Positions 6,217 through 44,335 of a stretch of 64,000 nucleotides of DNA are shown in pieces (position 1 is the stretch's first letter; each line of letters opens with the position of its first letter). Location of the stretch: the NCBI RefSeq assembly GCF_017348835.2, contig NZ_CP071375.1. One strand, written 5' to 3'. Origin of the DNA: Escherichia coli (GTDB lineage Bacteria > Pseudomonadota > Gammaproteobacteria > Enterobacterales > Enterobacteriaceae). Both the position numbers and the translations under genes were made by a program. Under the pieces are notes generated by a model. It ran no database searches, was not told the origin of the DNA, and saw only the letters and a list, made by a program, of their open reading frames with translations.

Positions 6217-6927
6217 ATGGTGAAAAAAGCGATAGTGACAGCGATGGCTGTAATCAGCCTCTTTACTCTGATGGGTTGTAATAATCGGGCCGAAGTCGAT
6301 ACGCTTTCTCCGGCGCAGGCAGCCGAACTGAAACCGATGCCGCAAAGTTGGCGCGGCGTGCTGCCGTGTGCCGATTGCGAAGGAATCGAAACCTCTCTGT
6401 TCCTCGAAAAAGACGGAACATGGGTGATGAATGAGCGTTATCTCGGTGCTCGTGAAGAACCTTCCTCCTTCGCTTCCTACGGTACATGGGCGCGAACCGC
6501 TGACAAGCTGGTATTAACCGACAGCAAAGGTGAAAAGTCATATTATCGGGCGAAAGGCGATGCGCTGGAGATGCTCGATCGTGAAGGTAAACCGATTGAA
6601 TCGCAGTTCAACTATACGCTGGAAGCGGCACAATCCAGTTTACCCATGACGCCGATGACTCTGCGGGGCATGTATTTTTATATGGCTGATGCGGCGACCT
6701 TCACTGATTGCGCGACCGGAAAACGTTTCATGGTAGCGAATAACGCAGAGCTGGAGCGTGGCTACCTGGCTGCGCGCGGGCACAGTGAAAAACCGGTGTT
6801 ACTGTCAGTAGAAGGTCACTTTACGCTTGAGGCTAATCCGGATACCGGTGCGCCGACCAAAGTATTAGCGCCCGATACGGCGGGTAAATTTTATCCGAAC
6901 CAGGATTGCAGTAGTTTGGGGCAGTAA
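6217..6927 (+). CDS. nlpE: Outer-membrane lipoprotein NlpE (Cpx activation)
   Basis: Lipoprotein signal with lipobox LMGC; CxxC motif CADCEG. Confidence 0.85.
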   Translation: MVKKAIVTAMAVISLFTLMGCNNRAEVDTLSPAQAAELKPMPQSWRGVLPCADCEGIETSLFLEKDGTWVMNERYLGAREEPSSFASYGTWARTADKLVLTDSKGEKSYYRAKGDALEMLDREGKPIESQFNYTLEAAQSSLPMTPMTLRGMYFYMADAATFTDCATGKRFMVANNAELERGYLAARGHSEKPVLLSVEGHFTLEANPDTGAPTKVLAPDTAGKFYPNQDCSSLGQ

Positions 6928-28387: not shown

Positions 28388-29434
28388 TTACTCCAGCGCA
28401 TCCCATTTCTCCAGCAGTTCTACTGGAATTTCATTTATTACCTCCGAGAAGCGTTTTCCGACCAGGCGTTCTGCCTGGCGCAGCAAAGGAATGGACGGGC
28501 TGCTCGGTTCGCTGTGCTCAAACCAGCGACGGATAACACGCAGGCGTTCCAGCGCGTCGTTCCGGTCGCGGATCTGCCGGGGTTCTGCGCCGGTCATCGG
28601 TGATATTTCCTCCGAGATACGCACCGGTAGCGCAATCTGCTCTGCCTGCATCTGTTCAGTATGATCGATGGTGGCGTTCTCCGGCTGTTCAGCCTGTGGT
28701 TGTGGCAGGATCTCCGGCGTGGTGCTCTGCACTGCTCCCGGCAACAGGGCTAGCAGTTGCGTCAGACGGGAGAAGTCCGGTGCCTGGTCATTCAGCGTTT
28801 CACGCGCATGGTGTTGCAGCCGCTCAGTGGTCTCTGCTGCCTGGCGAAAGGCATCCAGCGGCAGTGTGCCGCGCGCTTCCAGGTCTGCCAGTTGCTGGCG
28901 TACCGATTCTGGTGCCAGCGCATCCGCCGGACGTAATGCAGATAGCGAACGCTCCACATCCCGTACCTGAAGGCGCATGACAGCATTATTTGACAGTGTA
29001 ATGCCACGAATATCCGCCATTACGCCTTCGTGGTCCAGCAACGCCGCCAGCGCGTTACTGCGTGCCACCGCAGCATCTTCGGCGGTGATATCTTCAGTCG
29101 CGAGCAGTTGAGGATGGATGGCGTCCGGGTACGTGGCGCACAACGTTTCCAGCAGCGTGAGCGTCTCCGCCAGTCCCCTGGCACCGGCCTGCTGGATACG
29201 GCAGCGCAGCAGGACAACCAGAATGCGGATATCTTTGCTGCGCATCAGCAGACGATGGGCGTCCCGCTCAAGCTCCGCCCAGTTAATGTTTTCAGGCGTA
29301 CTGACAAAATCGCCATATTGCGCTTCTTCACGCGGTGCGGCGCGGGTGAACAGCAGCAGGTATTCCGGATCGTACTCCAGATCCGGGCCGCAGGGGCATT
29401 CCGCCGAAATTGGGTCAGACAGGAATATTTCCAT
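28388..29434 (-). CDS. tssA: T6SS TssA-family protein (ImpA N-terminal domain)
   Basis: 348 aa; N-terminal LSDPISAECPCGPDLEYDPEYLL resembles the ImpA_N domain; adjacent to tssG/tssF. Confidence 0.55.
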   Translation of the reverse strand: MEIFLSDPISAECPCGPDLEYDPEYLLLFTRAAPREEAQYGDFVSTPENINWAELERDAHRLLMRSKDIRILVVLLRCRIQQAGARGLAETLTLLETLCATYPDAIHPQLLATEDITAEDAAVARSNALAALLDHEGVMADIRGITLSNNAVMRLQVRDVERSLSALRPADALAPESVRQQLADLEARGTLPLDAFRQAAETTERLQHHARETLNDQAPDFSRLTQLLALLPGAVQSTTPEILPQPQAEQPENATIDHTEQMQAEQIALPVRISEEISPMTGAEPRQIRDRNDALERLRVIRRWFEHSEPSSPSIPLLRQAERLVGKRFSEVINEIPVELLEKWDALE

Positions 29435-29444
29435 TTAATTATCC

Positions 29445-30473
29445 TCAGTGCGCCAGGTAGTGTTCTGGTTCGAAAATCATGCCCGTCACCGGGTTGTCGT
29501 GCATGGCTTTACCCGCCCATGCGGTCCAACCCAGTTGGTACGGACCACCGGTAACAGCCGGAGGGGCGGCGTGGGGCTTTAGCTGTAGCTCAATTTCCCA
29601 GCAGTATTCAAAACCACTAAAGGCGCGGACCAGTTCGGTCAGGACAGGCAGGTTATTGCCGCCAGGCAGAAAACGTCGGTAATCCTCCAGCGTCAGCGGG
29701 CCGATAACCAGCCGGAACTTATACTGCATGTCCGGCACGGCCTGGCCGATAAGTGCACCATTGCCAATAACGGAAGAGGGGGCAGGCATCCCCAGCCGGG
29801 TTATCTCATCGTCCGCCACGGTTATCCAGTGCAGCACATACTCTTGTATCCGGAAAGATACACCGAAATAGTGCGCCAGCGTGGTGGCCAGACCGTCCGG
29901 ATTGCGGGACTCACGCACCAGATGGGCCGATGCCGCCAGACGAGCGTGATCCGGCAACGGGCTGTCGGCACTCTCCCGCAAATCCTGCCCGCTGAGGCTG
30001 GCGACATAAAAGGCAAAGCGGTCATGTTGCGGTTTATCCAGACCGCCCCCGGCGGACTGGGCGCTGCGCCATGCCTGGTAAAACTGCGTCAGCCAGCGGT
30101 GATGAAAAAGATCAGAAAAACGGGTTAGCGTCGGGTCTCTTCGGCTTTCAGTCCGGTTGCGCGCCAGTTCGCTGTAGTGCAGCGGCAGTGGACCGTTCGG
30201 CCCCCACAGCCCGAGACTGTACAAACTGATGTGCAAGCGCTCTTCCTGCCAGCTCACACTGGCGATTTCCCGTGGCGCAAAGGTCAGCGCGGGCGTTTGT
30301 CCGAGGCGAAATTTTTCTATCCGTGGTTGCCAGGTGTTGCCCGCCGGAACGCGACACAACTGCACATCAACGCGGCGCATCAGGTTCAGAAAACCGTAAC
30401 GCCAGGGGGTTTCCTGCGCCTGAGTGAAATCGTTGCTCATACGCTTCCCCGCTGTCCCGCCCTGACAGGCCAA
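29445..30473 (-). CDS. tssG: T6SS baseplate protein TssG
   Basis: 342 aa ORF immediately downstream of tssF with overlap; size and position typical of TssG. Confidence 0.55.
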   Translation of the reverse strand: MACQGGTAGKRMSNDFTQAQETPWRYGFLNLMRRVDVQLCRVPAGNTWQPRIEKFRLGQTPALTFAPREIASVSWQEERLHISLYSLGLWGPNGPLPLHYSELARNRTESRRDPTLTRFSDLFHHRWLTQFYQAWRSAQSAGGGLDKPQHDRFAFYVASLSGQDLRESADSPLPDHARLAASAHLVRESRNPDGLATTLAHYFGVSFRIQEYVLHWITVADDEITRLGMPAPSSVIGNGALIGQAVPDMQYKFRLVIGPLTLEDYRRFLPGGNNLPVLTELVRAFSGFEYCWEIELQLKPHAAPPAVTGGPYQLGWTAWAGKAMHDNPVTGMIFEPEHYLAH

Positions 30474-32320
30474 GTCATAATTTTACCGCGCTGCATGCTG
30501 TGCAGCGTCATCTGCGAGAAGGTATTAATGGAAACATGGCGGGCGATATAGTGTTCCAGCACCAGGCCGAACAGATACGGACTGATGCCGGAAAAACCTT
30601 CTTCATCCACCGTCAGTTCACAACTGACGCCACGCCCATAGGCCAGTAGTCCGGAACCGGGCAGACGGCGGGTGACCGGGGTCGTTTTACAACCAATCAG
30701 GCTGCGCACCTGGCGCGATTGCGGACTGTCATGAGCAGGAATAAACAGGTTCAGCAGATCTCGCAACGCCTGGCCGCCGGTACGGTGATCCAGATCGGCC
30801 AGCGGCAGATAATTAAAAGATAACTGGCGGATCAACCGCCATGCCATCTCACGTTCAGCCAGCGGGGGCTGCGGCGAGCGTGGCGGGCGGATAAGCCCTA
30901 CGCCCGCCACCGGGATGGCCGCATCCACGGTTAGATCGTCCCGGCCATTGCGGGCAATAAGACAGGGCAGATCGCGGTTAGTGACCATGGCCGTGATGGT
31001 GATGTGGCGCAGATTTTCCGGGTACGGCGCTTCATACTGGTCAACCAGCGACAGGAACACTTCCGAGCCCGTATAGGGGGTACGGGTGCCGTAACGGCGG
31101 GCGTTTTCTGATAAGCGGCGGGGCTCCCGGTGCAGGGAAAAATAACGTCCGTGATTGCCTTCATCATTATTGCGGGTGTGGTAGAGCGGGCGAAAGGCCA
31201 TCTTCCGTGTGGTGTCGGTTTCCAGCCCTTCCACTTCCTGGACCGAGAACACCTCATAATCCAGCGGATGGGTTCTGTCCACCACCAGATGCTGTTCCGT
31301 CGTGCTGTGCGTGACATCGATCCGGGCGGTGACGCGGGGAAACAGGTTGATAACCGGGGTACAGAACAGGCTGAACTGTGCCGCATTTGTCTGGTGGATC
31401 AGCCAGTCCGGCGGCAGGCGGTTCAGCAGGATAACAATCTCCGCCACGCCACCGTCAATTTTCTGTAATCCGGCAGACAGGCCTGTCGGGGTGAAAAAAT
31501 AGAAGCGTTCCGGACAGGCAAAATATTCATGCAGCAGGTTATGACCGTGAAACACGTTCCACGCCAGCGGCAGCAGCCCCTGATCCGGCTCCAGGCCTTC
31601 GTACATAACGGGCTGTTGCAGATTCACATCCAGCGCGCCGTCAAAATGTCCCGGAATGCCAGCCAGGGTCGCGATGGCGCTGGTATGTAGAAGTTCTAAC
31701 AGGTGTGAGGCCGTACGCTCCTCGCCGCAGAGATAAAACGGCAGCCTATCCAGTCCTGCAAGCTGACTGAACGTTAGTTCACCAAAGGTGCGCAGGGTAA
31801 TACGCAGCGCCCCGGCGACGTGAATGTTGGCCGGCAGGTAGCGATGCAGGGCAGGCATATCCGGTGGCGCGGCGGTCAGTCGCGCCTCTTCGATGGCGAG
31901 CGGCCACAGCGTTACATCCTGGCTGCTGCGAAACTGGCAGGCAGTGCTTTCGCCTTCCGGAATGGCGGAGAAAAAGGCCGTGTCGCGCGGGACGGTAAAT
32001 CCTTTCGCCAGATCGCCTTCTTCCGTATCGGGATGCAACTGCGCCACGCTCATTGAGGGCGTGGGTGTGACGTAATTGGGGCTGACCACTTCCAGCAGGC
32101 GCTGGGTGAAACGGGGGAATTCAGCGTCAATTTTTAGCTGCGTGCGGGCGGTCAGGAAGCTGAAGGCCTCGACCATTCGCTCTACATACGGATCGGCAAT
32201 ATCCGTTCCCTGCATGCCCAGCCGGGCGGCGACTTTGGGATGACGGGCGGCAAATTCGGCTCCCGTTTCCCGCAGATAGCTTAGTTCGCGGTTGTAGTAT
32301 TCCAGTAGCCGTGGATCCAT
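30437..32320 (-). CDS. tssF: T6SS baseplate protein TssF
   Basis: 627 aa; N-terminus [36 protein letters not shown] matches the TssF (ImpG/VasA) N-terminal signature as recalled. Confidence 0.75.
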
Positions 32321-32425
32321 CGGTCTCTCTCTGAATTAAAAAAACGTAATGCGGCTCTGCTCCATATCCAGCGCGCTACGTACGCGGGTTCAGCCGTAAC
32401 CGATGTATCTGGTGCCGCCGAGGAG

Positions 32426-34591
32426 ATGGCAGAACAGGCAGCGGCGGACCTGTTTGGTGCGTTGCCGGAACCGTCAGGTCTGGTTAAAGCCGCAGTAGCT
32501 GCTGCGCAGGCTGCCGCTGCAGCAGCAGGGATCCCGGATATGGCTGGTGCAGTTCAGGATGCGGCGGCGTCGATTGCTGCCGGTGGACCGGGGGCGCATA
32601 ACGTCACAGTAAGTGGTAGTGCGGTGCCGCCGCAGCTGCTTTTGTTTGCAGGCATGAATGGTTCGGAAGGGCTTGGAAACCTGTTTTCCTACACAGTACA
32701 GCTTAAAACCCCGGATACCCTGAACCTCGGATATGTCTCCCCCGCAGCCAACCTGCCGCTCAAGCCGATGGTGGGCAAAGACCTGTGCGTCAGTATCGAA
32801 CTGGACGGCGGCGGCAAACGGCATATCAGCGGGCTGGTGACAGCGGCGCGGGTGGTGGGCTATGAGGGCCGCTCGGTAACGTATGAATTACGCCTTGAGC
32901 CGTGGCTGAAACTGCTGACCCATACCAGCGACTACAAAGCGTTCCAGAATAAAACCGTGGTGGATATTCTCGATGAAGTACTGGATGAATATTCCTTTCC
33001 GGTGGAAAAGCGGCTGGTGGAAAATTATCCACCCCGCGCCTGGCAGGTGCAGTATGGTGAAACCGACTTCGATTTCATCCAGCGCCTGATGCAGGAATGG
33101 GGGATTTACTGGTGGTTTGAGCACAGCGAGAACAGCCACACGCTGGTGCTGGCGGATGCCATCAATGGTCATAAAGCGTGCCCTGACTCGCCGCTGGTGG
33201 AGTGGCACCAGGAAGGGCTGAAACTGGACAAGGAATTTATCCACACCATTACGGCCAGTGAGAGGCTGCGTACTGGAAAGTGGGTGATGGACGATTTTGA
33301 TTTTATGAAGCCTCGTTCGCTGCTTAAAAGTACCGTGGCTAGTCCGCGTGATACCGGTCATGCTGAATACGAGCATTATGAATGGCCTGGTGATTACTTC
33401 ACTACGGGCGAAGGCGAGATGCTGACGCGCATTCGTATGGAAGCGCAGCGCAGCCCCGGCAGCCGGGCACATGGGGCAGGTCATATCCGCACCCTCATGA
33501 CGGGTTACACCTTTACGCTGATGAATCATCCAACGGCAGAGGTCAACCAGGAATACCTACTGGTACAGACCACGCTGTTTTTACGGGATAATGCGCAGCA
33601 CAGCGGTCAGGAGCAGCATTTTACCTATGTCACCACGTTTGAACTGCACCCCACCAGCGAAGTTTACCGCCCACAGCGAACCCTAAGCAAACCCCACACC
33701 AAAGGCCCGCAGAGCGCCATCGTCACCGGCCCGGCAGGGCAGGAAATCTGGACGGATAAATATGGCCGGGTGAAGGTGCAGTTTGGCTGGGACCGTTACC
33801 TGTACGATGCGGAACAGCCGTACACGCCGGTGGCCGCCATCACGGGGCGCGGAGAGAGCCGGAAAATCTGGTATTACCACACGGACCTGACGGGCACGGT
33901 ACAGGAGGTGACCGCGCCGGACGGGACGCTGGTGTGGGCGGGCTATCAGGCGGGATTTGGTGAAAACCGGGGCGACATCAGCAACAGCGGGGCGTACTTT
34001 GAGCAGCCGCTGCGGCTGCCGGGGCAGTATTATGATGAAGAGACGGGGCTGCACTATAATCTGTTCAGATATTATGCGCCGGAGTGCGGGAGGTTTATCA
34101 GTCAGGATCCGATTTCGATCCGTGGGGGGCTGAATCTTTACCGGTATGCGCCTAATCCGCTGAGATGGATTGATCCGCTTGGATTAGACTGGAATTATCA
34201 TTTAACAGATAGTGATGGTAAGGTTTATTATCATGGACGTGCAAGTGATAATGCGTCAATGGAAGATGTTGCCCGTCGTCACAGCAATACAACAGGAGCT
34301 GATAAGGCAAGATTTGGAGAAACAGATACCATGACACGAATAACTGAGCCGGGTACGCCAAAATTAACAGCACAAGGTGTGGAAGGTATTGCCATAGGTG
34401 ATAATACTATCGGGCGAAGAGCTGATAACGGTAATAGGGGTCGGGGTAATAATATTCGGGGTGTTAATCCCAATGCAACCAATGCTACTGAAAAACTAAA
34501 TGCGGGTAAAGAATTTTTAAATGGACGAATACCAAGTGAAATGACTGGTGAAACATTGACAGGTAAGGAGTATTTTGAATCAAAATGTTAA
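32426..34591 (+). CDS. Chimeric protein: VgrG N-terminal (gp27-like) region fused in frame to an Rhs C-terminal core segment and a C-terminal toxin domain
   Basis: VgrG-like up to KVQFGWDR, then [21 protein letters not shown]...[27 protein letters not shown], which is nearly identical to 38200-38586 in the downstream Rhs; then an AT-rich unique tail. Confidence 0.7.
33795..34185 (+). repeat. Rhs 3' core segment, copy inside the VgrG chimera
   Basis: Near-identical nucleotide sequence to the Rhs core 3' ends at 38200-38586, 40930-41319 and 43520-43907. Confidence 0.8.
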
Positions 34592-35463
34592 AATTAACCG
34601 ATGTAAATAAAAATGCATTAAGAATACTTAAAAAATATAACGTGCTGGCAGAAGGTGACATAATAAGAGGTCATCCATTAAGTGAGCGGGATTTGAAATA
34701 TGTTGAGGCGCATTGTATTACAACTGAAGAACGAGCCTTTTTAAATGAAAAAGGTTTGGGGTTCGGATTTATTTCTGTGACTCATGATGAAGCATTAAGA
34801 GATTCGTTTACATATTTTAAATCTTCTAATAAAAATGATGTGACAGCTTCTTTTCTGGTGAGCCTGAGTAGTGCCAGATTAGACTACAGAAGTGGATTGT
34901 CTGCATTTGCAATTATGCAAACAATGCCGATGCATGGCTTTGAACCAAATCAGGCTTCTTTTTGTAAAGTATGTTCCGCAGAAAAATATAAAAAGCATTT
35001 TGATCTAACCAGCTTAAATCAGACTCGTTTCTTTAGTGGTTCTCTAGCAGTCTTTAAAACTCCTTATGAAATTTCTTTTTTTCTGGAGCAACAATCAAAA
35101 TTGGAAGTCGTTCAGCCAACCGAAAAAGATTTCTCTATCTTTAATGCGATTTTGAAAATAATTGTTGACGCAGAATCTGGCGAAAAACTGACATCAATAA
35201 TTAAAAAAATTAGAGCGATTGATGGCTTCAGGATAACTACAGATCAGTGTCGATGTCTTCTGGAAACGCTGGGATTTTGTGGGATTCTGGAAACGAAGGA
35301 ACACAAAGGGTATCTGACTTACTTTACTAATCCTGGACTGGCTCCGAGTAAATCTCATAGTTCTAACTGGGCCTATCCGGTTGATTTCTGGACCGGAGGG
35401 GATGGAATAAATCGCGAAGCGTTAAAATTCTGGTTTGGTGAATATAAAGAAATTGTTATCTGA
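34585..35463 (+). CDS. Putative immunity protein for the chimera's C-terminal toxin
   Basis: 292 aa AT-rich ORF; start overlaps the toxin stop (ATGTTAA), which suggests translational coupling. Confidence 0.45.
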
Positions 35464-35557
35464 TTAATTATTTTATAAATTTTTAATCGAGGGACGGATG
35501 GAAATCAATGCCGGATCCCCACCAGTACTAACAGGCGAAAATCCGGGAGAACTGATC

Positions 35558-35887
35558 TTACGGTTGAATAAGATCGTCAATAAACACCGCACCGTCAACG
35601 GTACGCAACCAGCGTGGCGCTTTCAGTTTTGCCGCAAAGAACCAGACCAGTTCACAAAGCAGCCCCGTCAGGGGTTGTTCCATTTTAGATCCCTGCGCCT
35701 GTTCCGTCAGGAGCTGGAGTAATACCTCGCAATATTCACACAATTGCTCAGGATCCAGGTCAAAGTGCGGAAATGAGGCAGGCAGGTCGTCGAGTGTCAG
35801 GCTGTCTACCAGATGGGGTGGAATAGGATCGTTCAGCGTGGGAGACAGAATGGCGATACAGGCGCGAAGTCGTCCGAACAACGCCAT
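35558..35887 (-). CDS. Hypothetical protein, possibly the distal part of a frameshifted gene that starts near 36021
   Basis: 109 aa ORF; upstream on the same strand a 36-codon ORF with RBS ggaggt ends in a stop just before it. Confidence 0.2.
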   Translation of the reverse strand: MALFGRLRACIAILSPTLNDPIPPHLVDSLTLDDLPASFPHFDLDPEQLCEYCEVLLQLLTEQAQGSKMEQPLTGLLCELVWFFAAKLKAPRWLRTVDGAVFIDDLIQP

Positions 35888-36097
35888 TTTCAGCGCCGGA
35901 TCGTGACACTCTATAAGGGTTCAGCGAAGCGATCGCAGTGATCGGCCAGGTCTGTGAAATCGGTGGCAGAACTGAAAGGAATGGACAATAAATCATAATC
36001 AGGGGTGAGGACTGTAGCCATAAGGCAACCTCCGATAAGTAGGCGTTAAAACCACCACCGAAGAGACCAATCTTACGGGTGGTGGAACCGGGCGGAG

Positions 36098-38932
36098 TTG
36101 GTCTTACCGGCCTTATCGGATACCGGCGCATCTTTCGATGCCACCGCCCGGCCCACCATTGAGGTACAGCCGTGCGTGCAACACAAAAAAGACGCTGGCG
36201 CGTCATGTGTCGCCGATAAGACTTATTCAGGAGACCAATCCCGACGCCTGATTTTGCAGACGCGGCATAACGATACAACGATCGCGAAATGGCGACAAAC
36301 CCCTTTCCCGGAAGGCGGCTCGCAAAATCAGAAATATCACAGGGAAAGACAGAGCGCCGCAACGCGGCGGGATGTACCGCTTCACGTACAACGAAAACCA
36401 TTTTCCGGTAGCGGTGGAACTCCCCGGCGAACGCAGGTAACGCTGGAATACGACACCCTGAGCCGGGTGGTGAAAGAGACGGACCCGGCAGGCCGGGTGA
36501 CACAGACGCAGTGGAACGGCAGTTTTGCTGAAATCACGCGCCGGGCACTGGATGACGACCACGTATGGAAGGCGGATTACAACGAACACGGCCAGGTGAT
36601 ACGGGAGACGGACCCGGAAGGGCGCGTCACGCGCTACGGGTATGATGAACAGGGGCTGGCGGTCAGCCGCACGGATGCGCGGGGCGGCGAGGCTGCGCTG
36701 GCGCATGATGCGCGCGGCCAGCTGAGGCGTTACACCGACTGTTCAGGGCGTGCCACGGGTTATGAATACGATGAAGACGGCAACCTGACGGTGGTGACGG
36801 ACGCGGAGGGGAAAACGGTACGTATCCGCTATAACCGTCTGGGACTGCCGGAGACGGTAAATCATCCCGGTAAACAGCAGGACCGTTACACGTGGAACGC
36901 GCTGGGGTTACTGAGCAGCCACCGTCGCATCACAGGCAGTGTGCAGTCCTGGCAGTATACGCCGCGCGGTCTGCTGGCGCTCCACGTAGATGAAGAGAAA
37001 CGGGAGACGCGCTGGCATTATACCGCGGAGGGATGGATTGCCAGTCTGAGCAACGGCAACGGAGCGCTTTACCGGTTCAGTCACGATGCGGACGGACGGC
37101 TGACGGGAGAACAGCGCCCGGACGGTCTGATACGGATGTTTGTGCTGAATGCGGGCGGGTATCCGGTCATCATCCAGACGCAGGGTACAGAAGGCGGGGG
37201 GCGCAATGAACAGCAGGAGCGTGACGCGCTGGGCCGCCTGCTGCGCAGTGACACGCAGCACAGTACACGGACCTTCAGCTACAACCGTCTTGACCAGATA
37301 ACGGAAGTGACGCTCACCCCGACGAAAGAAGGGGAACGGCTGCACCACATGCAGGCGGACACGGTGCGCTTTGCGTATGACCGCAGCGGCTGGCTGACGG
37401 CAGAGCACAGCGTGCACGGCAGCATAAAATATCAGCGTGACGCGCTGGGCAATCCCACCGATATCACGTTGCCGGACGGGCAGCATCTCAGTCATCTTTA
37501 CTACGGCAGCGGACATCTGCTCCAGACGGCACTGGACGGTATCACGGTCAGCGAATATGAGCGTGACAGTCTGCACCGTCAGGTGATGCGCACGCAGGGG
37601 AAACTGGCGACGTTCAGCGGCTACAACGCCGACAACCGGTTAAGCTGGCAGCGCAGTCTGCCAGGTGGCAGCCAGAATCCACAGCAGACCGGTAACCCCC
37701 CGGCGCAGAACGACAGCGTGACGGCGCGGGACTATATCTGGAATGCGGACGGTGAGGTCGGCGGCATCAATGACAAACTGCGCGGTTGCCTGGTGTTCAG
37801 CTATGACCGCAGCGGCTGGCTGACCAGTCGCACGGGTCAGATGTACGACCATGACCATTATTATTACGACAAAGCGGGCAACCTGCTGACGGACGAGTAT
37901 CAGAGCGCGGTGATGGATAACCGCCTGCCGGGCTACGGGCGTGACCGTTACCGCTATAACGAATGGGGCGAACTGACAGAGCGCAGGGACCAGCAACTGG
38001 AGTGGAATGCGCAGGGCCAGTTAACGCGGGTCATCAGCAGCAACAGCGAGACGCGGTATCAGTATGATGCGCTGGGCAGGCGTATCAGCAAGGCGACCAG
38101 CAATCTCCATACCGACCGGGGAGAACGAAGCCGGACAACGTTTGTGTGGGAAGGGGTCCGGCTGTTGCAGGAGACAACGTGGCAGGGAAAGCGGACGTAC
38201 CTGTACGACGCGGAACAGCCGTACACGCCGGTGGCCGCCATCACCGGGCGCGGAGAGAGCCGGAAAATCTGGTATTACCACACGGACCTGACGGGCACGG
38301 TACAGGAGGTGACCGCGGCGGACGGGACGCTGGTGTGGGCGGGCTATCAGGCGGGGTTCGGAGAAAACCGGGGCGACATCAGCAACAGCGGGGCGTATTT
38401 TGAACAGCCGCTGCGGCTGCCGGGGCAGTATTATGATGAAGAGACGGGGCTGCACTATAATCTGTTCAGATATTATGCGCCGGAGTGCGGGAGGTTCGTA
38501 AGCCAGGATCCGATTTCGATCCGGGGTGGTCTGAATCTTTACCGGTATGCGCCGAATCCGATTACTTGGATCGATCCGTGGGGATTGGCAAAGGGGGATT
38601 ATGGTAAAATGCCTACGTTCCCTGGTTGGCAGAAACATCATAATATTCCACAAAATATGGCTACTCATTCGGCAATTGTTGACTCTGGATTTGATATACA
38701 TAATAGTCGTAACATTACAACCTTGCCAAAAACTGGAAGTATAGATACTGCCAGAACAGTGCACAGTGGAATGCACACAGGAGATTATGACAGGATGGTA
38801 AAAAATGCTTTAGATCAAATTGACTCGTTGAATGCTTCCCCTGAGATCAAAAAAATGCATATAGAAGCCTTATCTGATGATATTGGCAATAAATTGAGAA
38901 CAAAACAAATTACGTTAAATGCTGCATGTTGA
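36098..38932 (+). CDS. Rhs / YD-repeat protein, 5'-truncated and frameshifted near 36425, with a C-terminal toxin domain after DPWGL
   Basis: YD repeats (RYxYD, YxYDxxG); frame switch at gaacgcaggtaacgctg; core ends ...NPITWIDPWGL, followed by an AT-rich tip. Confidence 0.7.
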   Translation: MVLPALSDTGASFDATARPTIEVQPCVQHKKDAGASCVADKTYSGDQSRRLILQTRHNDTTIAKWRQTPFPEGGSQNQKYHRERQSAATRRDVPLHVQRKPFSGSGGTPRRTQVTLEYDTLSRVVKETDPAGRVTQTQWNGSFAEITRRALDDDHVWKADYNEHGQVIRETDPEGRVTRYGYDEQGLAVSRTDARGGEAALAHDARGQLRRYTDCSGRATGYEYDEDGNLTVVTDAEGKTVRIRYNRLGLPETVNHPGKQQDRYTWNALGLLSSHRRITGSVQSWQYTPRGLLALHVDEEKRETRWHYTAEGWIASLSNGNGALYRFSHDADGRLTGEQRPDGLIRMFVLNAGGYPVIIQTQGTEGGGRNEQQERDALGRLLRSDTQHSTRTFSYNRLDQITEVTLTPTKEGERLHHMQADTVRFAYDRSGWLTAEHSVHGSIKYQRDALGNPTDITLPDGQHLSHLYYGSGHLLQTALDGITVSEYERDSLHRQVMRTQGKLATFSGYNADNRLSWQRSLPGGSQNPQQTGNPPAQNDSVTARDYIWNADGEVGGINDKLRGCLVFSYDRSGWLTSRTGQMYDHDHYYYDKAGNLLTDEYQSAVMDNRLPGYGRDRYRYNEWGELTERRDQQLEWNAQGQLTRVISSNSETRYQYDALGRRISKATSNLHTDRGERSRTTFVWEGVRLLQETTWQGKRTYLYDAEQPYTPVAAITGRGESRKIWYYHTDLTGTVQEVTAADGTLVWAGYQAGFGENRGDISNSGAYFEQPLRLPGQYYDEETGLHYNLFRYYAPECGRFVSQDPISIRGGLNLYRYAPNPITWIDPWGLAKGDYGKMPTFPGWQKHHNIPQNMATHSAIVDSGFDIHNSRNITTLPKTGSIDTARTVHSGMHTGDYDRMVKNALDQIDSLNASPEIKKMHIEALSDDIGNKLRTKQITLNAAC
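36848..38586 (+). repeat. Rhs conserved core repeat, copy 1
   Basis: About 1.7 kb, near-identical to 39583-41319; 3' part near-identical to 42465-43907. Confidence 0.85.
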
Positions 38933-38947
38933 ATAACGAGGGAATAT

Positions 38948-39538
38948 ATGATTTATTTTTTATCTGATAAAAAAAATACCTTCGGGTTGTTGCATTATGA
39001 TCATAAAACTTCGATCGACTACACAGTATTTAATGAGGGGGTTAGCATAACAGGAATAGACATTAATATTAAATATACATCAAACAATAAAAATGATTTA
39101 AAACGGCTCGAAAAGTGTAACATTATAGAAACGACAGGTCCGACATTGATAAATAATAAGATTAGACATGTTTTTGAAAAATATGCAAGCAATGCGGTTG
39201 AATTTTTTGATGTAGACATTAACGATGATATAGATTTATCAAGGAAGTTTTGTGCGATTAATTTATTATGGGTCTTACCATGTTGTGATATGGAAAAGAG
39301 TGAATTTACATTAAGTAATTTCGATCTTGCCAATCCTAACTATATGTTTATGTATAAAGTTCTAAAAAATGATATTAATAGAGAGGTGGATATATTTCGG
39401 TGTAAGGAGCAGCATACTGAAATTGTTGTAAGTGAAGGAGTTAAGCAAGCATGTATGGACGCGGGAATTAAAGGATTGCGTTTTTGTACGGCTATTGATT
39501 TAACTCCAAAAAATAGATCTGAGTGTGTATTTATTTAA
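38948..39538 (+). CDS. Putative immunity protein for the toxin tip of the Rhs at 36098-38932
   Basis: 196 aa AT-rich ORF immediately after the toxin. Confidence 0.45.
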   Translation: MIYFLSDKKNTFGLLHYDHKTSIDYTVFNEGVSITGIDINIKYTSNNKNDLKRLEKCNIIETTGPTLINNKIRHVFEKYASNAVEFFDVDINDDIDLSRKFCAINLLWVLPCCDMEKSEFTLSNFDLANPNYMFMYKVLKNDINREVDIFRCKEQHTEIVVSEGVKQACMDAGIKGLRFCTAIDLTPKNRSECVFI

Positions 39539-39547
39539 TATATATGT

Positions 39548-41656
39548 ATCACGCGGTGCGGGTATGACGAACAGTTCCTGCCGGAGACGGTCAGCCACCC
39601 CGGTAAACAGCAGGACCGTTACACCTGGAACGCACTGGGGTTACTGAGCAGCCATCGTCGCATCACGGGCAGTGTGCAGTCCTGGCAGTATACGCCGCGC
39701 GGGATGCTGGCGCGCCATACGGATGAAGAGAAACGGGAGACGCGCTGGCAGTACACCCCGGAAGGGCTGGTTGCCAGTCTGAGCAACGGCAACGGAGCGC
39801 TTTACCGGTTCAGTCACGATGCGGACGGACGGCTGACGGGAGAACAGCGCCCGGACGGTCTGATACGGATGTTTGTGCTGAATGCGGGCGGGTATCCGGT
39901 CATCATCCAGACGCAGGGTACAGAAGGCGGGGGGCGCAATGAACAGCAGGAGCGTGACGCGCTGGGCCGCCTGCTGCGCAGTGACACGCAGCACAGTACA
40001 CGGACCTTCAGCTACAACCGTCTTGACCAGATAACGGAAGTGACGCTCACCCCCACGGAAGAAGGGGAACGGCTGCACCACATGCAGGCGGACACGGTGC
40101 GCTTTGCGTATGACCGCAGCGGCTGGCTGACGGCAGAGCACAGCGTGCACGGCAGCATAAAATATCAGCGTGACGCGCTGGGCAATCCCACCGACATCAC
40201 GTTACCGAACGGGCAGCACCTCAGCCATCTTTACTACGGCAGCGGGCATCTGCTCCAGACGGCACTGGACGGTATCACGGTCAGTGAATATGAGCGTGAC
40301 AGTCTGCACCGTCAGGTGATGCGCACGCAGGGGAAACTGGCGACGTTCAGCGGCTACAACGCCGACAACCGGTTAAGCTGGCAGCGCAGCCTGCCAGGTG
40401 GCAGCCAGAACCCACAGCAGGCCGGTAACCCCCCGGCGCAGAAAGACAGCGTGACAGCGCGGGATTATATCTGGAACGCAGACGGTGAAGTCGGCGGCAT
40501 CAATGACAAACTGCGCGGTTGCCTGGTGTTCAGCTATGACCGCAGCGGCTGGCTGACCAGTCGCACGGGTCAGATGTACGACCATGACCATTATTATTAC
40601 GACAAAGCGGGCAATCTGCAGACGGATGAGCATCAGGGAGCGGTGCCGGATAACCGCCTGCCGGGCTACGGGCGTGACCGCTACCGCTATAACGAATGGG
40701 GCGAACTGACAGAGCGCAGGGACCAGCAACTGGAGTGGAATACGCAGGGCCAGTTAACGCGGGTCATCAGCAGCAACAGCGAGACGCGGTATCAGTATGA
40801 TGCGCTGGGCAGGCGTATCAGCAAGGCGACCAGCAATCTCCATACCGACCGGGGAGAACGAAGCCGGACAACGTTTGTGTGGGAAGGGTTCCGGCTGTTG
40901 CAGGAGACAACGTGGCAGGGAAAGCGGACATACCTGTACGACGCGGAACAGCCGTACACGCCGGTGGCGGCCATCACGGGGCGCGGAGAGAGCCAGAAAA
41001 TCTGGTATTACCACACGGACCTGACGGGCACGGTACACGAGGTAACCGCGCCGGACGGGACGCTGGTGTGGGCGGGCTACCAGGCGGGATTTGGCGAAAA
41101 CCGGGGCGACATCAGCAACAGCGGGGCGTACTTTGAGCAGCCGCTGCGACTGCCGGGGCAGTACTTTGACGAAGAAACAGGGCTGCATTACAATCTGTTC
41201 AGGTATTATGCGCCGGAGTGCGGGAGGTTCGTAAGCCAGGATCCGATAGGGTTGCTTGGTGGGCTGAACTTATATGCTTATGCGCCTAATCCGCTGTCAT
41301 GGATCGATCCGTTAGGTTTGACTCCATGTGCAAATGGGGGGAATGCTAAAAAACATGGTGGCACAGGACATAATAATTTTATTGATAATCTTATTGCGGA
41401 TGCTCGCAGTCAGGGTGCTACAAATATCAGGAAAAACCAATGGCAGGTAGATGTTAATGGAAATGTTGTTGGTAAAAATAGACCGGATGTTCAATTTGAT
41501 TTAAATGGTAAACATTATAATATTGAGGTTGATACAACAATAAAAGGCAGCGTTGGTCACCAAAATACTATACCTACACTTGATCCCAACTCAAGAAATA
41601 CATTTTGGCTAATTGATGACTTAGGGAATATTTTAAATGGCCACTCAACCATCTGA
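39548..41656 (+). pseudogene. Orphan 5'-truncated Rhs fragment with a distinct C-terminal toxin domain
   Basis: Rhs homology starts abruptly right after the upstream immunity gene; ORF track gives 39674..41656; core ends DPLGL, then a unique tip. Confidence 0.65.
39583..41319 (+). repeat. Rhs conserved core repeat, copy 2
   Basis: Near-identical to 36848-38586. Confidence 0.85.
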
Positions 41657-42221
41657 TAATAAAAAATTAGTGTTTGCTGTAGTGAACAGTGATTTTAATG
41701 ATATAGAAAGAACTATCCATAATGGATTGAACTGGCCGAGTGAACCAATAAGTAGTCGAAAACTTATTGAGGAAATACACTTGACTATTCAACGTGGTGG
41801 GGTCTTGCCGTCCGAGGGGGTTTTCTATTATCCGTGTATAAATGACAGCAAATTAATTTTTCTGTCTAATTTATCTGATGGATGGGACTCTTTACTTTAT
41901 TGCCTGTCAAAACAGAATAAATCTAGCTATCTACTGTTTAGGTTATTGATGGGGGAATACCCTCTGATGGAAATGAGTTTTATAGAGTCAGGGAAAACAA
42001 TACGTTTAATTAGAGTGATAAAAGAAAATAAATGGATTTTTTATGAGGTCGGGGAACCGTTATGGTTTGAAGAAAAGGAAAACTATTCAAAAAGAAGAAT
42101 CGCAGATAGAATTACTTATGATCTCTTACTCTCCTATTCACGGAAAAATGGCATTGACTTTGATTCCCCCGCATTTTTTAAAACGGAAAAAGAATCACTA
42201 TGGTTGAATGAAATACGATAG
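41637..42221 (+). CDS. Putative immunity protein for the second orphan toxin
   Basis: 194 aa AT-rich ORF overlapping the toxin 3' end. Confidence 0.4.
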   Translation: MATQPSDNKKLVFAVVNSDFNDIERTIHNGLNWPSEPISSRKLIEEIHLTIQRGGVLPSEGVFYYPCINDSKLIFLSNLSDGWDSLLYCLSKQNKSSYLLFRLLMGEYPLMEMSFIESGKTIRLIRVIKENKWIFYEVGEPLWFEEKENYSKRRIADRITYDLLLSYSRKNGIDFDSPAFFKTEKESLWLNEIR

Positions 42222-42232
42222 TTTATTTAAAT

Positions 42233-42271
42233 AAAAAGCCGGAAAAGAAATTAAACTTTCCCGGCTTTTTT
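42233..42271. terminator. Bidirectional hairpin terminator
   Basis: aaaaagccggaaaag...ctttcccggctttttt; homologous to the hairpin at 44613-44650. Confidence 0.5.
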
Positions 42272-42276
42272 ATTAT

Positions 42277-42465
42277 TTAACTCTCGTTCAGCACACTAAA
42301 CATCCCGTCCCGCATCCCCTTAACTGCCTGTTTAACCTGATAAAGCTCCCTGCGCAGTTCCTGTACTTCGTTGTTATCCGCAAGCAGGATCAGACATCCC
42401 TCCGAGATCTTCACGGTAACGCCCGTGCCGATCTCAAATCCCGCTTCTCTCAGCCATTTGGCGCT
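42277..42465 (-). pseudogene. SymE-like toxin gene, 5'-truncated by the adjoining Rhs fragment
   Basis: C-terminal 60 aa AKWLREAGFEIGTGVTVKISEGCLILLADNN... resemble SymE; the upstream part of the ORF is antisense Rhs sequence. Confidence 0.5.
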
Positions 42466-43907
42466 GAATGCGGGCGGGTTTCCGGTCATCATCCAGACGC
42501 AGGGCACAGAGGGCGGGGTGCGTAATGAGCGGCAGGAGCGTGATGCGCTGGGCCGCCTGCTGCGCAGTGACACGCAGCACAGTACACGGACCTTCAGCTA
42601 CAACCGTCTTGACCAGATAACGGAAGTGACGCTCACCCCCACGGAAGAAGGGGAACGGCTGCACCACATGCAGGCGGACACGGTGCGCTTTGCGTATGAC
42701 CGCAGCGGCTGGCTGACGGCAGAGCACAGCGTGCACGGCAGCATAAAATATCAGCGTGACGCGCTGGGCAATCCCACCGACATCACGTTACCGAACGGGC
42801 AGCACCTCAGCCATCTTTACTACGGCAGCGGGCATCTGCTCCAGACGGCACTGGACGGTATCACGGTCAGTGAATATGAGCGTGACAGTCTGCACCGTCA
42901 GGTGATGCGCACGCAGGGGAAACTGGCGACGTTCAGCGGCTACAACGCCGACAACCGGTTAAGCTGGCAGCGCAGCCTGCCAGGTGGCAGCCAGAACCCA
43001 CAGCAGGCCGGTAACCCCCCGGCGCAGAAAGACAGCGTGACAGCGCGGGATTATATCTGGAACGCAGACGGTGAAGTCGGCGGCATCAATGACAAACTGC
43101 GCGGTTGCCTGGTGTTCAGCTATGACCGCAGCGGCTGGCTGACCAGTCGCACGGGTCAGATGTACGACCATGACCATTATTATTACGACAAAGCGGGCAA
43201 TCTGCAGACGGATGAGCATCAGGGAGCGGTGCCGGATAACCGCCTGCCGGGCTACGGGCGTGACCGCTACCGCTATAACGAATGGGGCGAACTGACAGAG
43301 CGCAGGGACCAGCAACTGGAGTGGAATACGCAGGGCCAGTTAACGCGGGTCATCAGCAGCAACAGCGAGACGCGGTATCAGTATGATGCGCTGGGCAGGC
43401 GTATCAGCAAGGCGACCAGCAATCTCCATACCGACCGGGGAGAACGAAGCCGGACAACGTTTGTGTGGGAAGGGTTCCGGCTGTTGCAGGAGACAACGTG
43501 GCAGGGAAAGCGGACATACCTGTACGACGCGGAACAGCCGTACACGCCGGTGGCGGCCATCACGGGGCGCGGAGAGAGCCAGAAAATCTGGTATTACCAC
43601 ACGGACCTGACGGGCACGGTACACGAGGTAACCGCGCCGGACGGGACGCTGGTGTGGGCGGGCTACCAGGCGGGATTTGGTGAAAACCGGGGCGACATCA
43701 GCAACAGCGGGGCGTACTTTGAGCAGCCGCTGCGGCTGCCGGGGCAGTATTATGATGAAGATACGGGGCTGCACTATAATCTGTTCAGATATTATGCGCC
43801 GGAGTGCGGGCGGTTTATCAGTCAGGACCCGATAGGGCTGGCGGGAGGAATAAACCTATATGCTTATGCGCCTAATCCGCTAAGTTATATTGATCCTCTT
43901 GGGCTTT
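42465..43907 (+). repeat. Rhs conserved core repeat, copy 3
   Basis: Near-identical to 37146-38586 and 39880-41319. Confidence 0.85.
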
Positions 43908-44335
43908 GTAAATTAAGGGGAAGCGATGGGCGCTACAGAAGTGCACAGAATATTCAGGAAGAAATAGGCGGCCTACCCAATTTTGCAGGAAAAACTCCAG
44001 GAGAAATACGACAAACTTTGCGTAATCGAGGTTATTCGTCGGTACAAGCGTATAGTGGAGGAGAGGTCTGGACAAAAGCATTACCTGACGGAAATACTGT
44101 TGCAGTGAGGCTTGATCCGGCAAATCCTCGCTCACCTTCACATTATGCTGATGCTGTACCTCATGCTCATATTGAAACAGTTCCAACATCCAGTGTTTCT
44201 AATGGGAATTATCGCCCGCGAGACGTGACTGGCAGGCATACTGCCACTGGTGGGGTTTCTGATCGAGGAACAAATCCGAATCATAACGCTGATGTTTACA
44301 TTCCAATGTCTCCGGGACGATTCCCATATGATTAA
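42465..44335 (+). pseudogene. Orphan 5'-truncated Rhs fragment with a third distinct C-terminal toxin domain
   Basis: Rhs homology starts at gctgaatgcgggcggg (matches 37139 in copy 1); core ends DPLGL at 43907, followed by a unique tip. Confidence 0.65.

What the first reader, a model, noticed from the sequence alone, without database searches (positions are those of the whole stretch)
36098..36440. The Rhs at 36098-38932 lacks an intact 5' end: frame switch at about 36425 and no N-terminal domain
The first hundred or so codons of the ORF do not look like Rhs. Rhs-like sequence appears in a second frame (..YRFTYNENHFPVAVELPGERR, then stop) and continues in the ORF frame from VTLEYDTLSRVVKETD. 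This suggests a 1 bp indel near gaacgcaggtaacgctg and loss of the normal N-terminal region, so even the most complete Rhs in the island is probably a pseudogene or orphan.
Basis: seen in the sequence. Interest (0 to 1): 0.45.

Follow-up and report, generated by a model that had tools for sequence, protein, structure and literature searches.

The report
Truncated, frameshifted orphan Rhs toxin gene
The "Rhs gene" at 36098-38932 is an ordinary leftover (orphan) copy of an E. coli Rhs toxin gene: it has lost its first 510 codons, carries a one-base deletion 24 codons into what remains, and is already annotated as a pseudogene in public genomes.

Summary
The window is an E. coli chromosome, at the T6SS/Rhs island between tRNA-Asp (aspV) and yafV.

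- **Where Rhs starts.** Similarity to intact PAAR-Rhs proteins begins at 36364/36366, at Rhs residue 511. It runs for 24 codons in one frame, hits TAA at 36438-36440, and continues one frame over from 36437 to the stop at 38932.
- **Cause of the frame change.** One G is missing from a GGG run (the window has GG at 36436-36437). Of 13 complete E. coli genomes with this segment, 11 have GGG. The two with GG are independent pig isolates from China and Australia, so this is a real mutation in one lineage.
- **What is missing.** Nothing in the 64 kb matches Rhs residues 1-510, which hold prePAAR, PAAR, DUF6531 and the first part of the shell.
- **The first 89 ORF codons are not Rhs.** They lie antisense to a C4/IsrK-type phage-like RNA cassette.
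- **The truncation is older than the frameshift.** The same junction occurs in strain PapRG-06-5, downstream of an intact vgrG-chaperone-rhs-immunity set, without the frameshift.
- **What remains.** The locus is a classic orphan rhs-CT/immunity module (AHH nuclease tip plus Imm11) in a decayed T6SS island.

Novelty is none and interest is low.

The parts
36098..36365 (+). Non-Rhs 5' part of the mechanical 944-aa ORF (codons 1-89). An accidental open frame running antisense over the C4/IsrK cassette.
   Evidence: No Rhs similarity in any forward frame. No Pfam or NCBIfam Rhs hit for residues 1-108. No Shine-Dalgarno before any in-frame start codon. The same frame is already open in PapRG-06-5, where it is not joined to Rhs.
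36364..36364 (+). Truncation breakpoint: first base of continuous identity to intact rhs genes (Rhs codon about 511).
   Evidence: Megablast matches to intact rhs genes all start at query base 965, which is window 36364. Four-way DNA alignment.
36366..36437 (+). Rhs codons 511-534 (GGMYRFTYNENHFPVAVELPGERR) in frame 3, out of frame with the rest of the gene.
   Evidence: tblastn and blastx, 96-100% identity, E about 1e-10 to 1e-13.
36436..36440 (+). Frameshift site: GG where relatives have GGG, followed by the resulting TAA stop (36438-36440).
   Evidence: Alignments. 11 of 13 E. coli genomes with this segment have the extra G.
36437..38587 (+). Rhs YD-repeat shell and core (equivalent to Rhs aa 535-1251) in frame 2. 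Uninterrupted, ending with the PNPITWIDPWGL (PxxxxDPxGL) motif at 38552-38587. GC is 61%.
   Evidence: tblastn single HSP, 94-96% identity. Pfam RHS_repeat x7 and RHS core. 717 codons without a stop and dN/dS 0.13-0.18 against relatives. GC content.
38588..38932 (+). Polymorphic C-terminal toxin tip: AHH (HNH/EndoVII-superfamily) nuclease domain. GC is 37%.
   Evidence: Pfam PF14412 AHH, E = 1.5e-14, covering 7-110 of 111 profile positions. PGAP calls 38609-38932 a separate AHH-domain CDS.
38948..39538 (+). Cognate immunity gene (Imm11 family) with its own ATG. GC is 30%.
   Evidence: Pfam PF07791 Imm11, E = 5.8e-13. PGAP 'imm11 family protein'.
38456..38461 (+). TATAAT at the position homologous to the -10 box of the Salmonella internal P2 rhs promoter. 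The -35 equivalent (ATGATG, 38433-38438) is weak.
   Evidence: Comparison by eye of the window sequence with the P2 sequences in S2 Fig of PMC7043789. The exact pattern search with up to 3 mismatches failed. Not picked up by the consensus scan. Function is inferred only.
36075..36163 (-). C4-type antisense RNA gene inside the spacer that replaces the Rhs N-terminal coding region.
   Evidence: Rfam RF01695, 70.6 bits against a gathering score of 45, full length. Also present in L003-L007.
36185..36276 (-). IsrK-like RNA with a1/b1 target elements of the C4 RNA.
   Evidence: Rfam RF01394, 65.8 bits against 50. RF03163 c4-a1b1 scores 40.2 bits here (below the 46.7 gathering score) and 47.0 bits in AR_0077. 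The 10-mer GATTGGTCTC occurs only twice in the window, at 36231-36240 and 36063-36072 on the minus strand, and is complementary to AGACCAA in the C4 RNA.
35558..36021 (-). Gene for a 154-aa protein of unknown function downstream of the C4 RNA (GGAGG Shine-Dalgarno plus ATG). Frameshifted in this window at about 35919.
   Evidence: Intact in PapRG-06-5 and AR_0077. PGAP 'frameshifted' in PE164 and F2_81. Indel located. No Pfam, NCBIfam or PHROG family.
32387..34591 (+). Remains of the former main locus: vgrG (aa 33-503) fused in frame to rhs (aa 1122 to end, with a toxin tip of unknown family).
   Evidence: tblastn: vgrG aa 33-503 at 32387-33799, Rhs aa 1122-1251 at 33797-34186. Pfam Phage_GPD plus RHS core. 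PGAP pseudogene call.
34585..35463 (+). Putative immunity gene of the fused rhs tip (292 aa, GC 36%).
   Evidence: Position and composition only. No family hit.
39551..41656 (+). Second, shorter orphan rhs (from Rhs aa 662). Its presumed immunity gene follows at 41637-42221.
   Evidence: tblastn; ORF list.
42449..44335 (+). Third, still shorter orphan rhs (from Rhs aa 766).
   Evidence: tblastn; ORF list.

Best explanation
The feature is the first and longest orphan rhs-CT/immunity module in a decayed E. coli T6SS/Rhs island at aspV.

**How it arose.** An ancestral full-length class-I prePAAR/PAAR-Rhs gene was cut at codon 511. A DNA segment ending in a C4/IsrK RNA cassette and a 154-aa gene (inverted relative to rhs) came to lie upstream of the cut. 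In relatives that segment also carries the current main rhs tip and its immunity gene. This is the usual way displaced Rhs tips pile up downstream of a main gene. Later, in the lineage of pig strains PE164 and F2_81, three more lesions occurred:
- one G was lost from a GGG run 24 codons into the orphan;
- the neighbouring 154-aa gene was also frameshifted;
- the main vgrG-chaperone-rhs set was deleted down to an in-frame vgrG'-'rhs stub.

**What it does now.** The 944-aa ORF is an accident: the 1-bp deletion joins the Rhs frame to a frame that was already open across the spacer. As a delivered T6SS effector the gene is dead.
- It has no start signal.
- It lacks prePAAR, the transmembrane region and PAAR, so it cannot load onto VgrG.
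- It lacks the plug and the first third of the shell.
- There is no chaperone gene.
- The island retains only tssA, tssF and tssG.

**What may still work (inferred, not shown).**
- The Imm11 gene may give immunity to AHH-tipped Rhs toxins.
- The intact core and tip may serve as recombination substrate for other rhs copies.
- The AHH tip and immunity gene may be expressed internally from the counterpart of the Salmonella P2 promoter, which would not depend on the 5' end.
For: **Shown here.**
- Frames and breakpoint.
- The 1-bp deletion against four comparator sequences, and against 11 of 13 genomes.
- Intact relatives carry prePAAR_I (1-53), PAAR (72-138) and DUF6531 (224-296). This ORF has none of them.
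- No match to Rhs aa 1-510 anywhere in the window.
- The identical spacer|rhs junction lies downstream of intact vgrG, a DcrB-related chaperone, a 1374-aa rhs and an immunity gene in PapRG-06-5. There the orphan frame is open for 865 aa.
- The orphans form a nested series starting at Rhs aa 511, 662 and 766.
- GC is 61% in the core, 37% in the tip and 30% in the immunity gene.
- The AHH and Imm11 domains are intact.
- No Shine-Dalgarno precedes any candidate start.
- Between aspV and yafV only tssA, tssG and tssF remain.
- PGAP labels the CDS frameshifted and incomplete.
- dN/dS is 0.13-0.18 over 717 stop-free codons, so the core diverged under selection and the decay is recent.
- F2_81 lacks one orphan module relative to the window, which shows recombination between orphan cores.

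**From the literature.**
- Orphan modules lack translation initiation signals while their immunity genes can be expressed (PMC3150448).
- Internal P2 promoters express Rhs tips in Salmonella (PMC7043789).
Against: - Apart from the single frameshift, 832 codons are open, and the substitution pattern looks selected. Some expression of a truncated product cannot be excluded.
- In PapRG-06-5 an ATG (an allelic Met at Rhs position 513) opens the orphan frame. In AR_0077 a junction deletion fuses a spacer ATG in frame to the core. This could hint at selection for orphan translation, although neither ATG has a good ribosome-binding site (and reading of the sequences).
- The order of events (insertion, then frameshift, then main-gene deletion) is inferred from four genomes only.
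- I did not check whether another T6SS or a compatible full-length rhs exists elsewhere in this genome.
Confidence: 0.9

Rival explanations
1. The missing G is a sequencing or assembly error in a short homopolymer. The true gene would then be an unbroken N-terminally truncated ORF starting at the ATG at 36372, as in PapRG-06-5.
For: The lesion is a 1-base change in a G run. A second 1-base indel lies about 500 bp away, in the 154-aa gene. PapRG-06-5 has the open version.
Against: The same GG allele occurs in two independently sequenced isolates from different continents: PE164 from China and F2_81 from Australia. These differ elsewhere in the island, including by a whole orphan module. A run of three G is not a typical error site. 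Even if this rival were true, the gene would still lack codons 1-510, so the orphan verdict stands.
Confidence: 0.04
2. The 944-aa ORF is a real chimeric gene. The spacer-derived 113 residues would form a new N-terminal region, translated from TTG 36098 or GTG 36176, that gives the truncated Rhs a new function or export route.
For: The frame is open for 944 codons. Joining of the two frames is specific to this lineage. AR_0077 also has a spacer-initiated in-frame fusion.
Against: No Shine-Dalgarno precedes TTG 36098, and only a 4-base GAGG lies 11 nt before GTG 36176. The N-terminal 108 residues hit no family. The region is occupied on the other strand by two conserved RNA genes that explain its conservation. 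The frame is open in PapRG-06-5 without being joined to Rhs. A shell missing its first third and its plug cannot close, on the structural knowledge of Rhs cocoons such as PDB 7q97 (matched). The only forward promoter-like site nearby is a weak 9-of-12 match at 35972-35999.
Confidence: 0.03
3. Programmed ribosomal frameshifting at CGC-AGG-TAA restores the Rhs frame during translation from the ATG at 36372.
For: A rare AGG codon followed by a stop codon is a context known to promote recoding in some genes (general knowledge).
Against: Restoring the frame needs a -1 shift, and there is no X XXY YYZ slippery heptamer (sequence). The ATG at 36372 has no usable ribosome-binding site. Eleven of 13 related genomes simply have the extra G, so the site is not a conserved recoding signal.
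Confidence: 0.01

Closest known systems
Orphan rhs-CT/rhsI modules downstream of main rhs genes (Poole et al. 2011, PMC3150448; the C-terminal displacement model of Jackson et al. 2009, cited from memory)
   Same: It lacks a 5' end and start signals. It retains 3' core sequence with the PxxxxDPxGL motif and a distinct AT-rich toxin tip. An immunity gene with its own start follows. It sits in a nested array of successively shorter fragments. Poole et al. describe a Yersinia orphan that keeps more upstream rhs sequence but has an in-frame stop, which is essentially the same situation.
   Different: It is unusually long, keeping about 740 core codons. It is separated from the preceding immunity gene by a 900-bp inverted C4/IsrK cassette rather than abutting it. 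The main rhs it should sit behind has itself been deleted in this strain.
Class I prePAAR PAAR-Rhs T6SS effectors with an EagR/DcrB-type chaperone (for example E. coli MB53 WP_257188130.1, or Photorhabdus Rhs1 in PDB 7q97)
   Same: 94-96% identical to E. coli members over Rhs aa 511-1251. It has the same RHS core and autocleavage-type motif.
   Different: It lacks prePAAR, the transmembrane region, PAAR, DUF6531 and the first roughly 210 residues of the shell. There is no chaperone gene and no intact vgrG next to it.
Salmonella Typhimurium orphan rhs expressed from the internal P2 promoter as a TA-like module (Starsta et al. 2020, PMC7043789)
   Same: The region 89 nt upstream of the PxxxxDPxGL coding sequence is homologous, and the window has a perfect TATAAT where Salmonella has TACAAT. 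An intact toxin tip and immunity gene follow.
   Different: The -35 equivalent is ATGATG instead of TTGACG. No transcript or toxicity data exist for this locus. The tip is AHH, not the Salmonella toxins.
P1/P7 immI-type C4 antisense RNA systems and Gifsy-1 IsrK (Rfam RF01695, RF03163, RF01394; PMC4825925)
   Same: The spacer on the minus strand has a1/b1 targets with IsrK, then the C4 RNA, then a second copy of the target 10-mer, then a ribosome-binding site and ORF. This is the P1 immI layout as I recall it.
   Different: It is not in a phage. The downstream gene (154 aa) has no detectable relation to icd/ant or to any PHROG family, and it is frameshifted here.

Membership tests
Full-length T6SS PAAR-Rhs effector (class I prePAAR) | N-terminal prePAAR motif with transmembrane helices | tested here: not met
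   PF25799 is found in MB53 and the PapRG main Rhs (aa 1-53) but not in the window ORF. No tblastn match to aa 1-510 in the window.
Full-length T6SS PAAR-Rhs effector (class I prePAAR) | PAAR domain for mounting on the VgrG tip | tested here: not met
   PF05488 is present in intact relatives (aa 72-138) and absent here.
Full-length T6SS PAAR-Rhs effector (class I prePAAR) | DUF6531 / N-terminal plug and a complete YD-repeat shell | tested here: not met
   PF20148 is absent. The shell starts at residue 511 of about 1250.
Full-length T6SS PAAR-Rhs effector (class I prePAAR) | RHS core with PxxxxDPxGL followed by a variable toxin domain | tested here: met
   PF03527 RHS core. PNPITWIDPWGL at 38552-38587. 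AHH domain E = 1.5e-14.
Full-length T6SS PAAR-Rhs effector (class I prePAAR) | Adjacent vgrG and Eag/DcrB-type chaperone, and a T6SS apparatus | tested here: not met
   vgrG is truncated at both ends and fused to an rhs stub. There is no DcrB-related gene. Only tssA, tssF and tssG are in the island. The rest of the genome was not examined.
Orphan rhs-CT/rhsI module | rhs fragment lacking the 5' end and translation initiation signals | tested here: met
   Breakpoint at 36364. No Shine-Dalgarno before any candidate start.
Orphan rhs-CT/rhsI module | Retains conserved core sequence up to PxxxxDPxGL, giving homology for recombination with other rhs copies | tested here: met
   94-95% nucleotide identity to the PapRG main rhs and to the other orphans in the window.
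Orphan rhs-CT/rhsI module | Distinct toxin tip followed by an immunity gene with its own start, and a drop in GC at the core/tip boundary | tested here: met
   AHH plus Imm11. GC falls from 61% to 37% to 30%.
Orphan rhs-CT/rhsI module | Lies downstream of a main (full-length) rhs gene | tested here: inconclusive
   True in PapRG-06-5 and AR_0077, which share the junction. In this window the main gene is reduced to a vgrG'-'rhs stub.
Orphan rhs-CT/rhsI module | Toxin is active and neutralised by the cognate immunity protein | not testable with these tools
   Needs expression and toxicity assays.
C4 antisense RNA / IsrK cassette (Rfam CL00128, RF01394) | Covariance-model score above the curated gathering score | tested here: met
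   C4 70.6 bits against 45. IsrK 65.8 bits against 50. Both full length.
C4 antisense RNA / IsrK cassette (Rfam CL00128, RF01394) | Duplicated target sequences complementary to a C4 loop, one upstream of C4 and one before the regulated ORF | tested here: met
   GATTGGTCTC occurs only at 36231-36240 and 36063-36072 on the minus strand (0.06 matches expected by chance) and is complementary to AGACCAA in C4. Regulation itself was not tested.

The most novel reading that the evidence does not exclude
The 900-bp spacer that replaces the Rhs N-terminus may not be random filler. A C4/IsrK antisense-RNA cassette with a 154-aa gene recurs at the right-hand end of vgrG-rhs-immunity cassettes in at least two very different E. 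coli Rhs families. Each time it abuts a fragment of the local rhs that starts about a third of the way into the gene (aa 511 here, aa 487 in Ec-U9-1). It could be the terminal module of a mobile unit that delivers new rhs tips and, on insertion, truncates the resident rhs to create long orphans. Alternatively it could be an RNA-controlled gene functionally tied to Rhs loci.
Probability: 0.15. Interest if true: 0.4.

Novelty: already known. Interest (0 to 1): 0.12.

Why it matters
Its main value is for annotation. The 944-aa ORF should not be counted as an intact Rhs effector, and this island should not be scored as an active T6SS/Rhs weapon.

The locus is a clean textbook example of how Rhs arrays decay and shuffle. 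Within a few closely related strains it shows:
- a shared ancient truncation;
- a lineage-specific frameshift;
- a junction deletion;
- a lost orphan module;
- a vgrG-rhs deletion fusion.

The intact AHH/Imm11 pair is present in only 2 of 5426 complete E. coli genomes. It may still give immunity, or act as a donor tip for recombination.

Tried and rejected
- **Rhs similarity upstream of 36364.** I searched all forward frames with a very permissive blastx and found only noise.
- **ORF residues 1-108 against Pfam and NCBIfam at E up to 10 and 1.** The only hit was a meaningless DUF5564 match at E = 0.06.
- **Was the ATG at 36372 created by the junction?** No. The PapRG main Rhs has the same GGM allele.
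- **Do the junctions here and in Ec-U9-1 fall at the same Rhs alignment column?** The two Rhs families are only 22-29% identical in this region and the repeats make the alignment ambiguous, so a common origin cannot be claimed.
- **Identity of the 154-aa spacer protein.** Pfam, NCBIfam and PHROGs gave nothing. tblastn against phage records gave a single unannotated 1.5-kb record.
- **Exact search for the Salmonella P2 promoter.** Allowing up to 3 mismatches it failed. The homologous stretch was then compared by eye.
- **Consensus promoter scans.** They gave nothing convincing for either the orphan 5' end or the tip.
- **Scripting problem.** Loci fetched in parallel calls (L002, L004) were not available to scripts. 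I pasted the MB53 protein in by hand instead.
Full report
**Where we are.** The window is an E. coli chromosome. The stretch 35400-37400 is 100% identical to pig strains PE164 and F2_81. 26 kb around it differs from PE164 at a single base. The region lies between tRNA-Asp (aspV) and yafV, the usual site of an E. coli T6SS/Rhs island. It is followed by an AHH-domain region and an imm11-family gene.

- The ORF 36098-38932 (TTG start, 944 aa) exists.
- I ran tblastn with two intact Rhs proteins of the same family: MB53 (1347 aa) and the main Rhs of PapRG-06-5 (1374 aa). Residues 511-534 fall at 36366-36437 in frame 3 (96-100% identity). Residues 530-1277 fall at 36422-38626 in frame 2 (94-96% identity).
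- The frame-3 reading GGMYRFTYNENHFPVAVELPGERR ends at TAA 36438-36440.
- DNA alignments show one base missing from a G run. The window has cgcaGGtaacg; the MB53 gene, the PapRG main gene and the PapRG orphan all have cgcaGGGtaacg.
- Continuous nucleotide identity to intact rhs genes begins at 36364.
- Upstream of that point no forward frame resembles Rhs, and ORF residues 1-108 hit no Rhs family.

**What is missing.**
- Intact relatives carry a prePAAR motif (aa 1-53), PAAR (72-138) and DUF6531 (224-296) before the YD repeats. The window ORF has only RHS repeats, the RHS core and an AHH nuclease domain.
- No part of the 64-kb window matches Rhs residues 1-510.
- The best structural relative by sequence is Photorhabdus Rhs1 (PDB 7q97), which aligns over residues 96-1251 of the intact protein. 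By that alignment and the Pfam domain positions above, the loss covers the loading domains, the plug and about the first third of the shell.

**The frameshift is real and recent; the truncation is older.**
- An 85-base query across the site finds 13 complete E. coli genomes. Eleven have an 86-base match carrying the extra G. Only PE164 (China) and F2_81 (Australia) have the 85-base allele.
- These two assemblies are independent and differ elsewhere in the island, including by a whole orphan module. A sequencing artefact is therefore unlikely.
- PapRG-06-5 has the identical spacer|rhs junction but with GGG. There the fragment is the first orphan behind an intact vgrG, a DcrB-related chaperone, a 1374-aa rhs and an immunity gene, and it is open for 865 codons.
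- AR_0077 has the same spacer but a further deletion at the junction, so that the Rhs similarity starts at the sequence corresponding to window ~36520 (the 'about 147 bp' and the short AACG repeats at its ends are my own reading of the alignment).
- The Met at the start of the PapRG orphan ORF is an allelic residue also present in that strain's main Rhs, not something created by the junction.

**What replaced the N-terminus.**
- The 900 bases between the preceding immunity gene (ending at 35463) and the breakpoint are not decayed Rhs.
- On the minus strand Rfam finds a full-length C4 antisense RNA (36075-36163, 70.6 bits against a gathering score of 45) and an IsrK RNA (36185-36263, 65.8 bits against 50), with an overlapping a1/b1 target element.
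- Downstream on that strand are a GGAGG ribosome-binding site and a 154-aa ORF (36021 down to 35558). This ORF is intact in PapRG-06-5 and AR_0077 but frameshifted here at about 35919.
- The 10-mer GATTGGTCTC occurs only twice in the window: once in the a1/b1 element and once between C4 and the ribosome-binding site. It is complementary to AGACCAA in the C4 RNA. As I recall it, this is the layout of the phage P1 immI region.
- That frame is already open in PapRG-06-5, where it is not joined to Rhs. The 1-bp deletion merely spliced two open frames together.
- None of the in-frame start codons has a usable Shine-Dalgarno.

**State of the island.**
- The former main locus is gone. vgrG residues 33-503 (32387-33799) are fused in frame to rhs residue 1122 onward (33797-34591). 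This removes the vgrG C-terminus, the chaperone gene and rhs codons 1-1121.
- Only tssA, tssG and tssF remain of the secretion apparatus.
- Downstream are two shorter orphans, starting at Rhs aa 662 and 766.
- The cores of all copies are 94-95% identical in DNA.
- GC falls from 61% in the core to 37% in the tip and 30% in the immunity gene, the classic Rhs pattern.

**How it most likely works.**
- As a delivered effector it does not work. It has no start signal, loading domains, plug or chaperone, and no apparatus in the island.
- The rest is inferred from published work on orphan modules. Orphans generally lack initiation signals while their immunity genes can be expressed, and they can serve as a reservoir of tips (PMC3150448).
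- Three observations support recent descent from functional genes and continued recombination:
  - The 717 core codons have no stop, and dN/dS is 0.13-0.18 against the PapRG main and orphan copies.
  - The same 5' junction carries three different tips in three strains.
  - F2_81 lacks one orphan module.
- In Salmonella, Rhs tips are transcribed from an internal P2 promoter 89 nt upstream of the PxxxxDPxGL coding sequence (PMC7043789). The homologous position here has a perfect TATAAT (38456-38461) but a poor -35.
- Internal expression of the AHH tip and Imm11 is therefore possible and would not depend on the damaged 5' end. I could not test it.

**Rivals.**
- *Sequencing error:* unlikely, for the reasons above, and it would not change the orphan verdict.
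- *A real chimeric protein from TTG 36098:* there is no ribosome-binding site and no homologues, the opposite strand carries conserved RNA genes, and the shell would be incomplete.
- *Programmed frameshifting:* there is no slippery site, and most relatives simply have the extra G.

**Comparison and novelty.**
- This is a member of the well-described class of orphan rhs-CT/immunity modules. It fails the membership test for a full-length PAAR-Rhs effector on every N-terminal feature.
- It is already flagged as a pseudogene in RefSeq. The AHH/Imm11 tip is rare, present in 2 of 5426 complete E. coli genomes, but it belongs to known families.
- The only mildly unusual point is the C4/IsrK cassette at the junction. 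The same cassette sits at the 3' flank of vgrG-rhs modules of a very different Rhs family (JNE151685 and Ec-U9-1). In Ec-U9-1 it abuts a 27-codon fragment of that strain's own Rhs (aa 487-513).
- The cassette is also common in integrase-linked islands, where RefSeq calls an 'ash family protein' over the C4 RNA.
- Whether it marks the end of a mobile unit that brings in rhs tips is open. The breakpoints in the two families cannot be shown to be homologous.

**Verdict.** The feature is ordinary and already known.

Noticed in passing
window 36063-36276 (minus strand), with 35558-36021: A complete P1 immI-like arrangement sits between two Rhs modules: a1/b1 targets with IsrK, the C4 antisense RNA, a second copy of the target 10-mer, then a ribosome-binding site and a 154-aa ORF of unknown family. 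The ORF is frameshifted in this strain.
   Followed up: partly
L005 6486-6659 versus 6494-6582; window 36075-36163: RefSeq 'ash family protein' CDS calls coincide with the Rfam C4 RNA hit. Translations of this stretch give only sub-threshold Pfam Phage_ASH matches (18-23 bits against a cutoff of 26). The protein annotation may be a translation of an RNA gene.
   Followed up: partly
window 32387-34591: An in-frame deletion fuses vgrG (aa 33-503) to the last 130 core residues and toxin tip of an rhs gene, giving a 721-aa ORF. The vgrG 5' end is also missing. The tip and the 292-aa gene after it (34585-35463) match no family.
   Followed up: partly
window 28388-32320: The T6SS cluster at aspV is reduced to tssA, tssG and tssF. 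The island cannot build a secretion apparatus on its own.
   Followed up: no
L007 7820-7925 (Ec-U9-1); also L006: At the end of a different T6SS island, the same C4 cassette abuts a 27-codon fragment of that strain's own, very different Rhs (aa 487-513). An ISAs1 element and a truncated dkgB follow.
   Followed up: partly
L004 9755-9800 (AR_0077), equivalent to window ~36376-36520: AR_0077 has a further deletion at the spacer|rhs junction (about 147 bp, between short AACG repeats, by my own reading of the alignment). It places a spacer ATG in frame with the Rhs core, giving an 833-aa ORF.
   Followed up: partly
L008 16139-18347 versus window 39538-43900: F2_81 has one orphan rhs module fewer than the window and PE164. 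This is consistent with recombination between the 94%-identical cores of orphans 2 and 3.
   Followed up: no
window 42277-42492 (minus strand): A SymE-family type I toxin CDS (PGAP annotation in PE164) lies antisense across the 5' end of the third orphan rhs. Similar SymE calls flank orphans in PapRG-06-5 and F2_81.
   Followed up: no
window 36355-36369 (minus strand): A perfect 6-bp GC hairpin (CGCCGC-GTT-GCGGCG) followed by a T-rich tail sits exactly on the spacer|rhs breakpoint. It could be a terminator remnant or a hotspot for illegitimate recombination.
   Followed up: no
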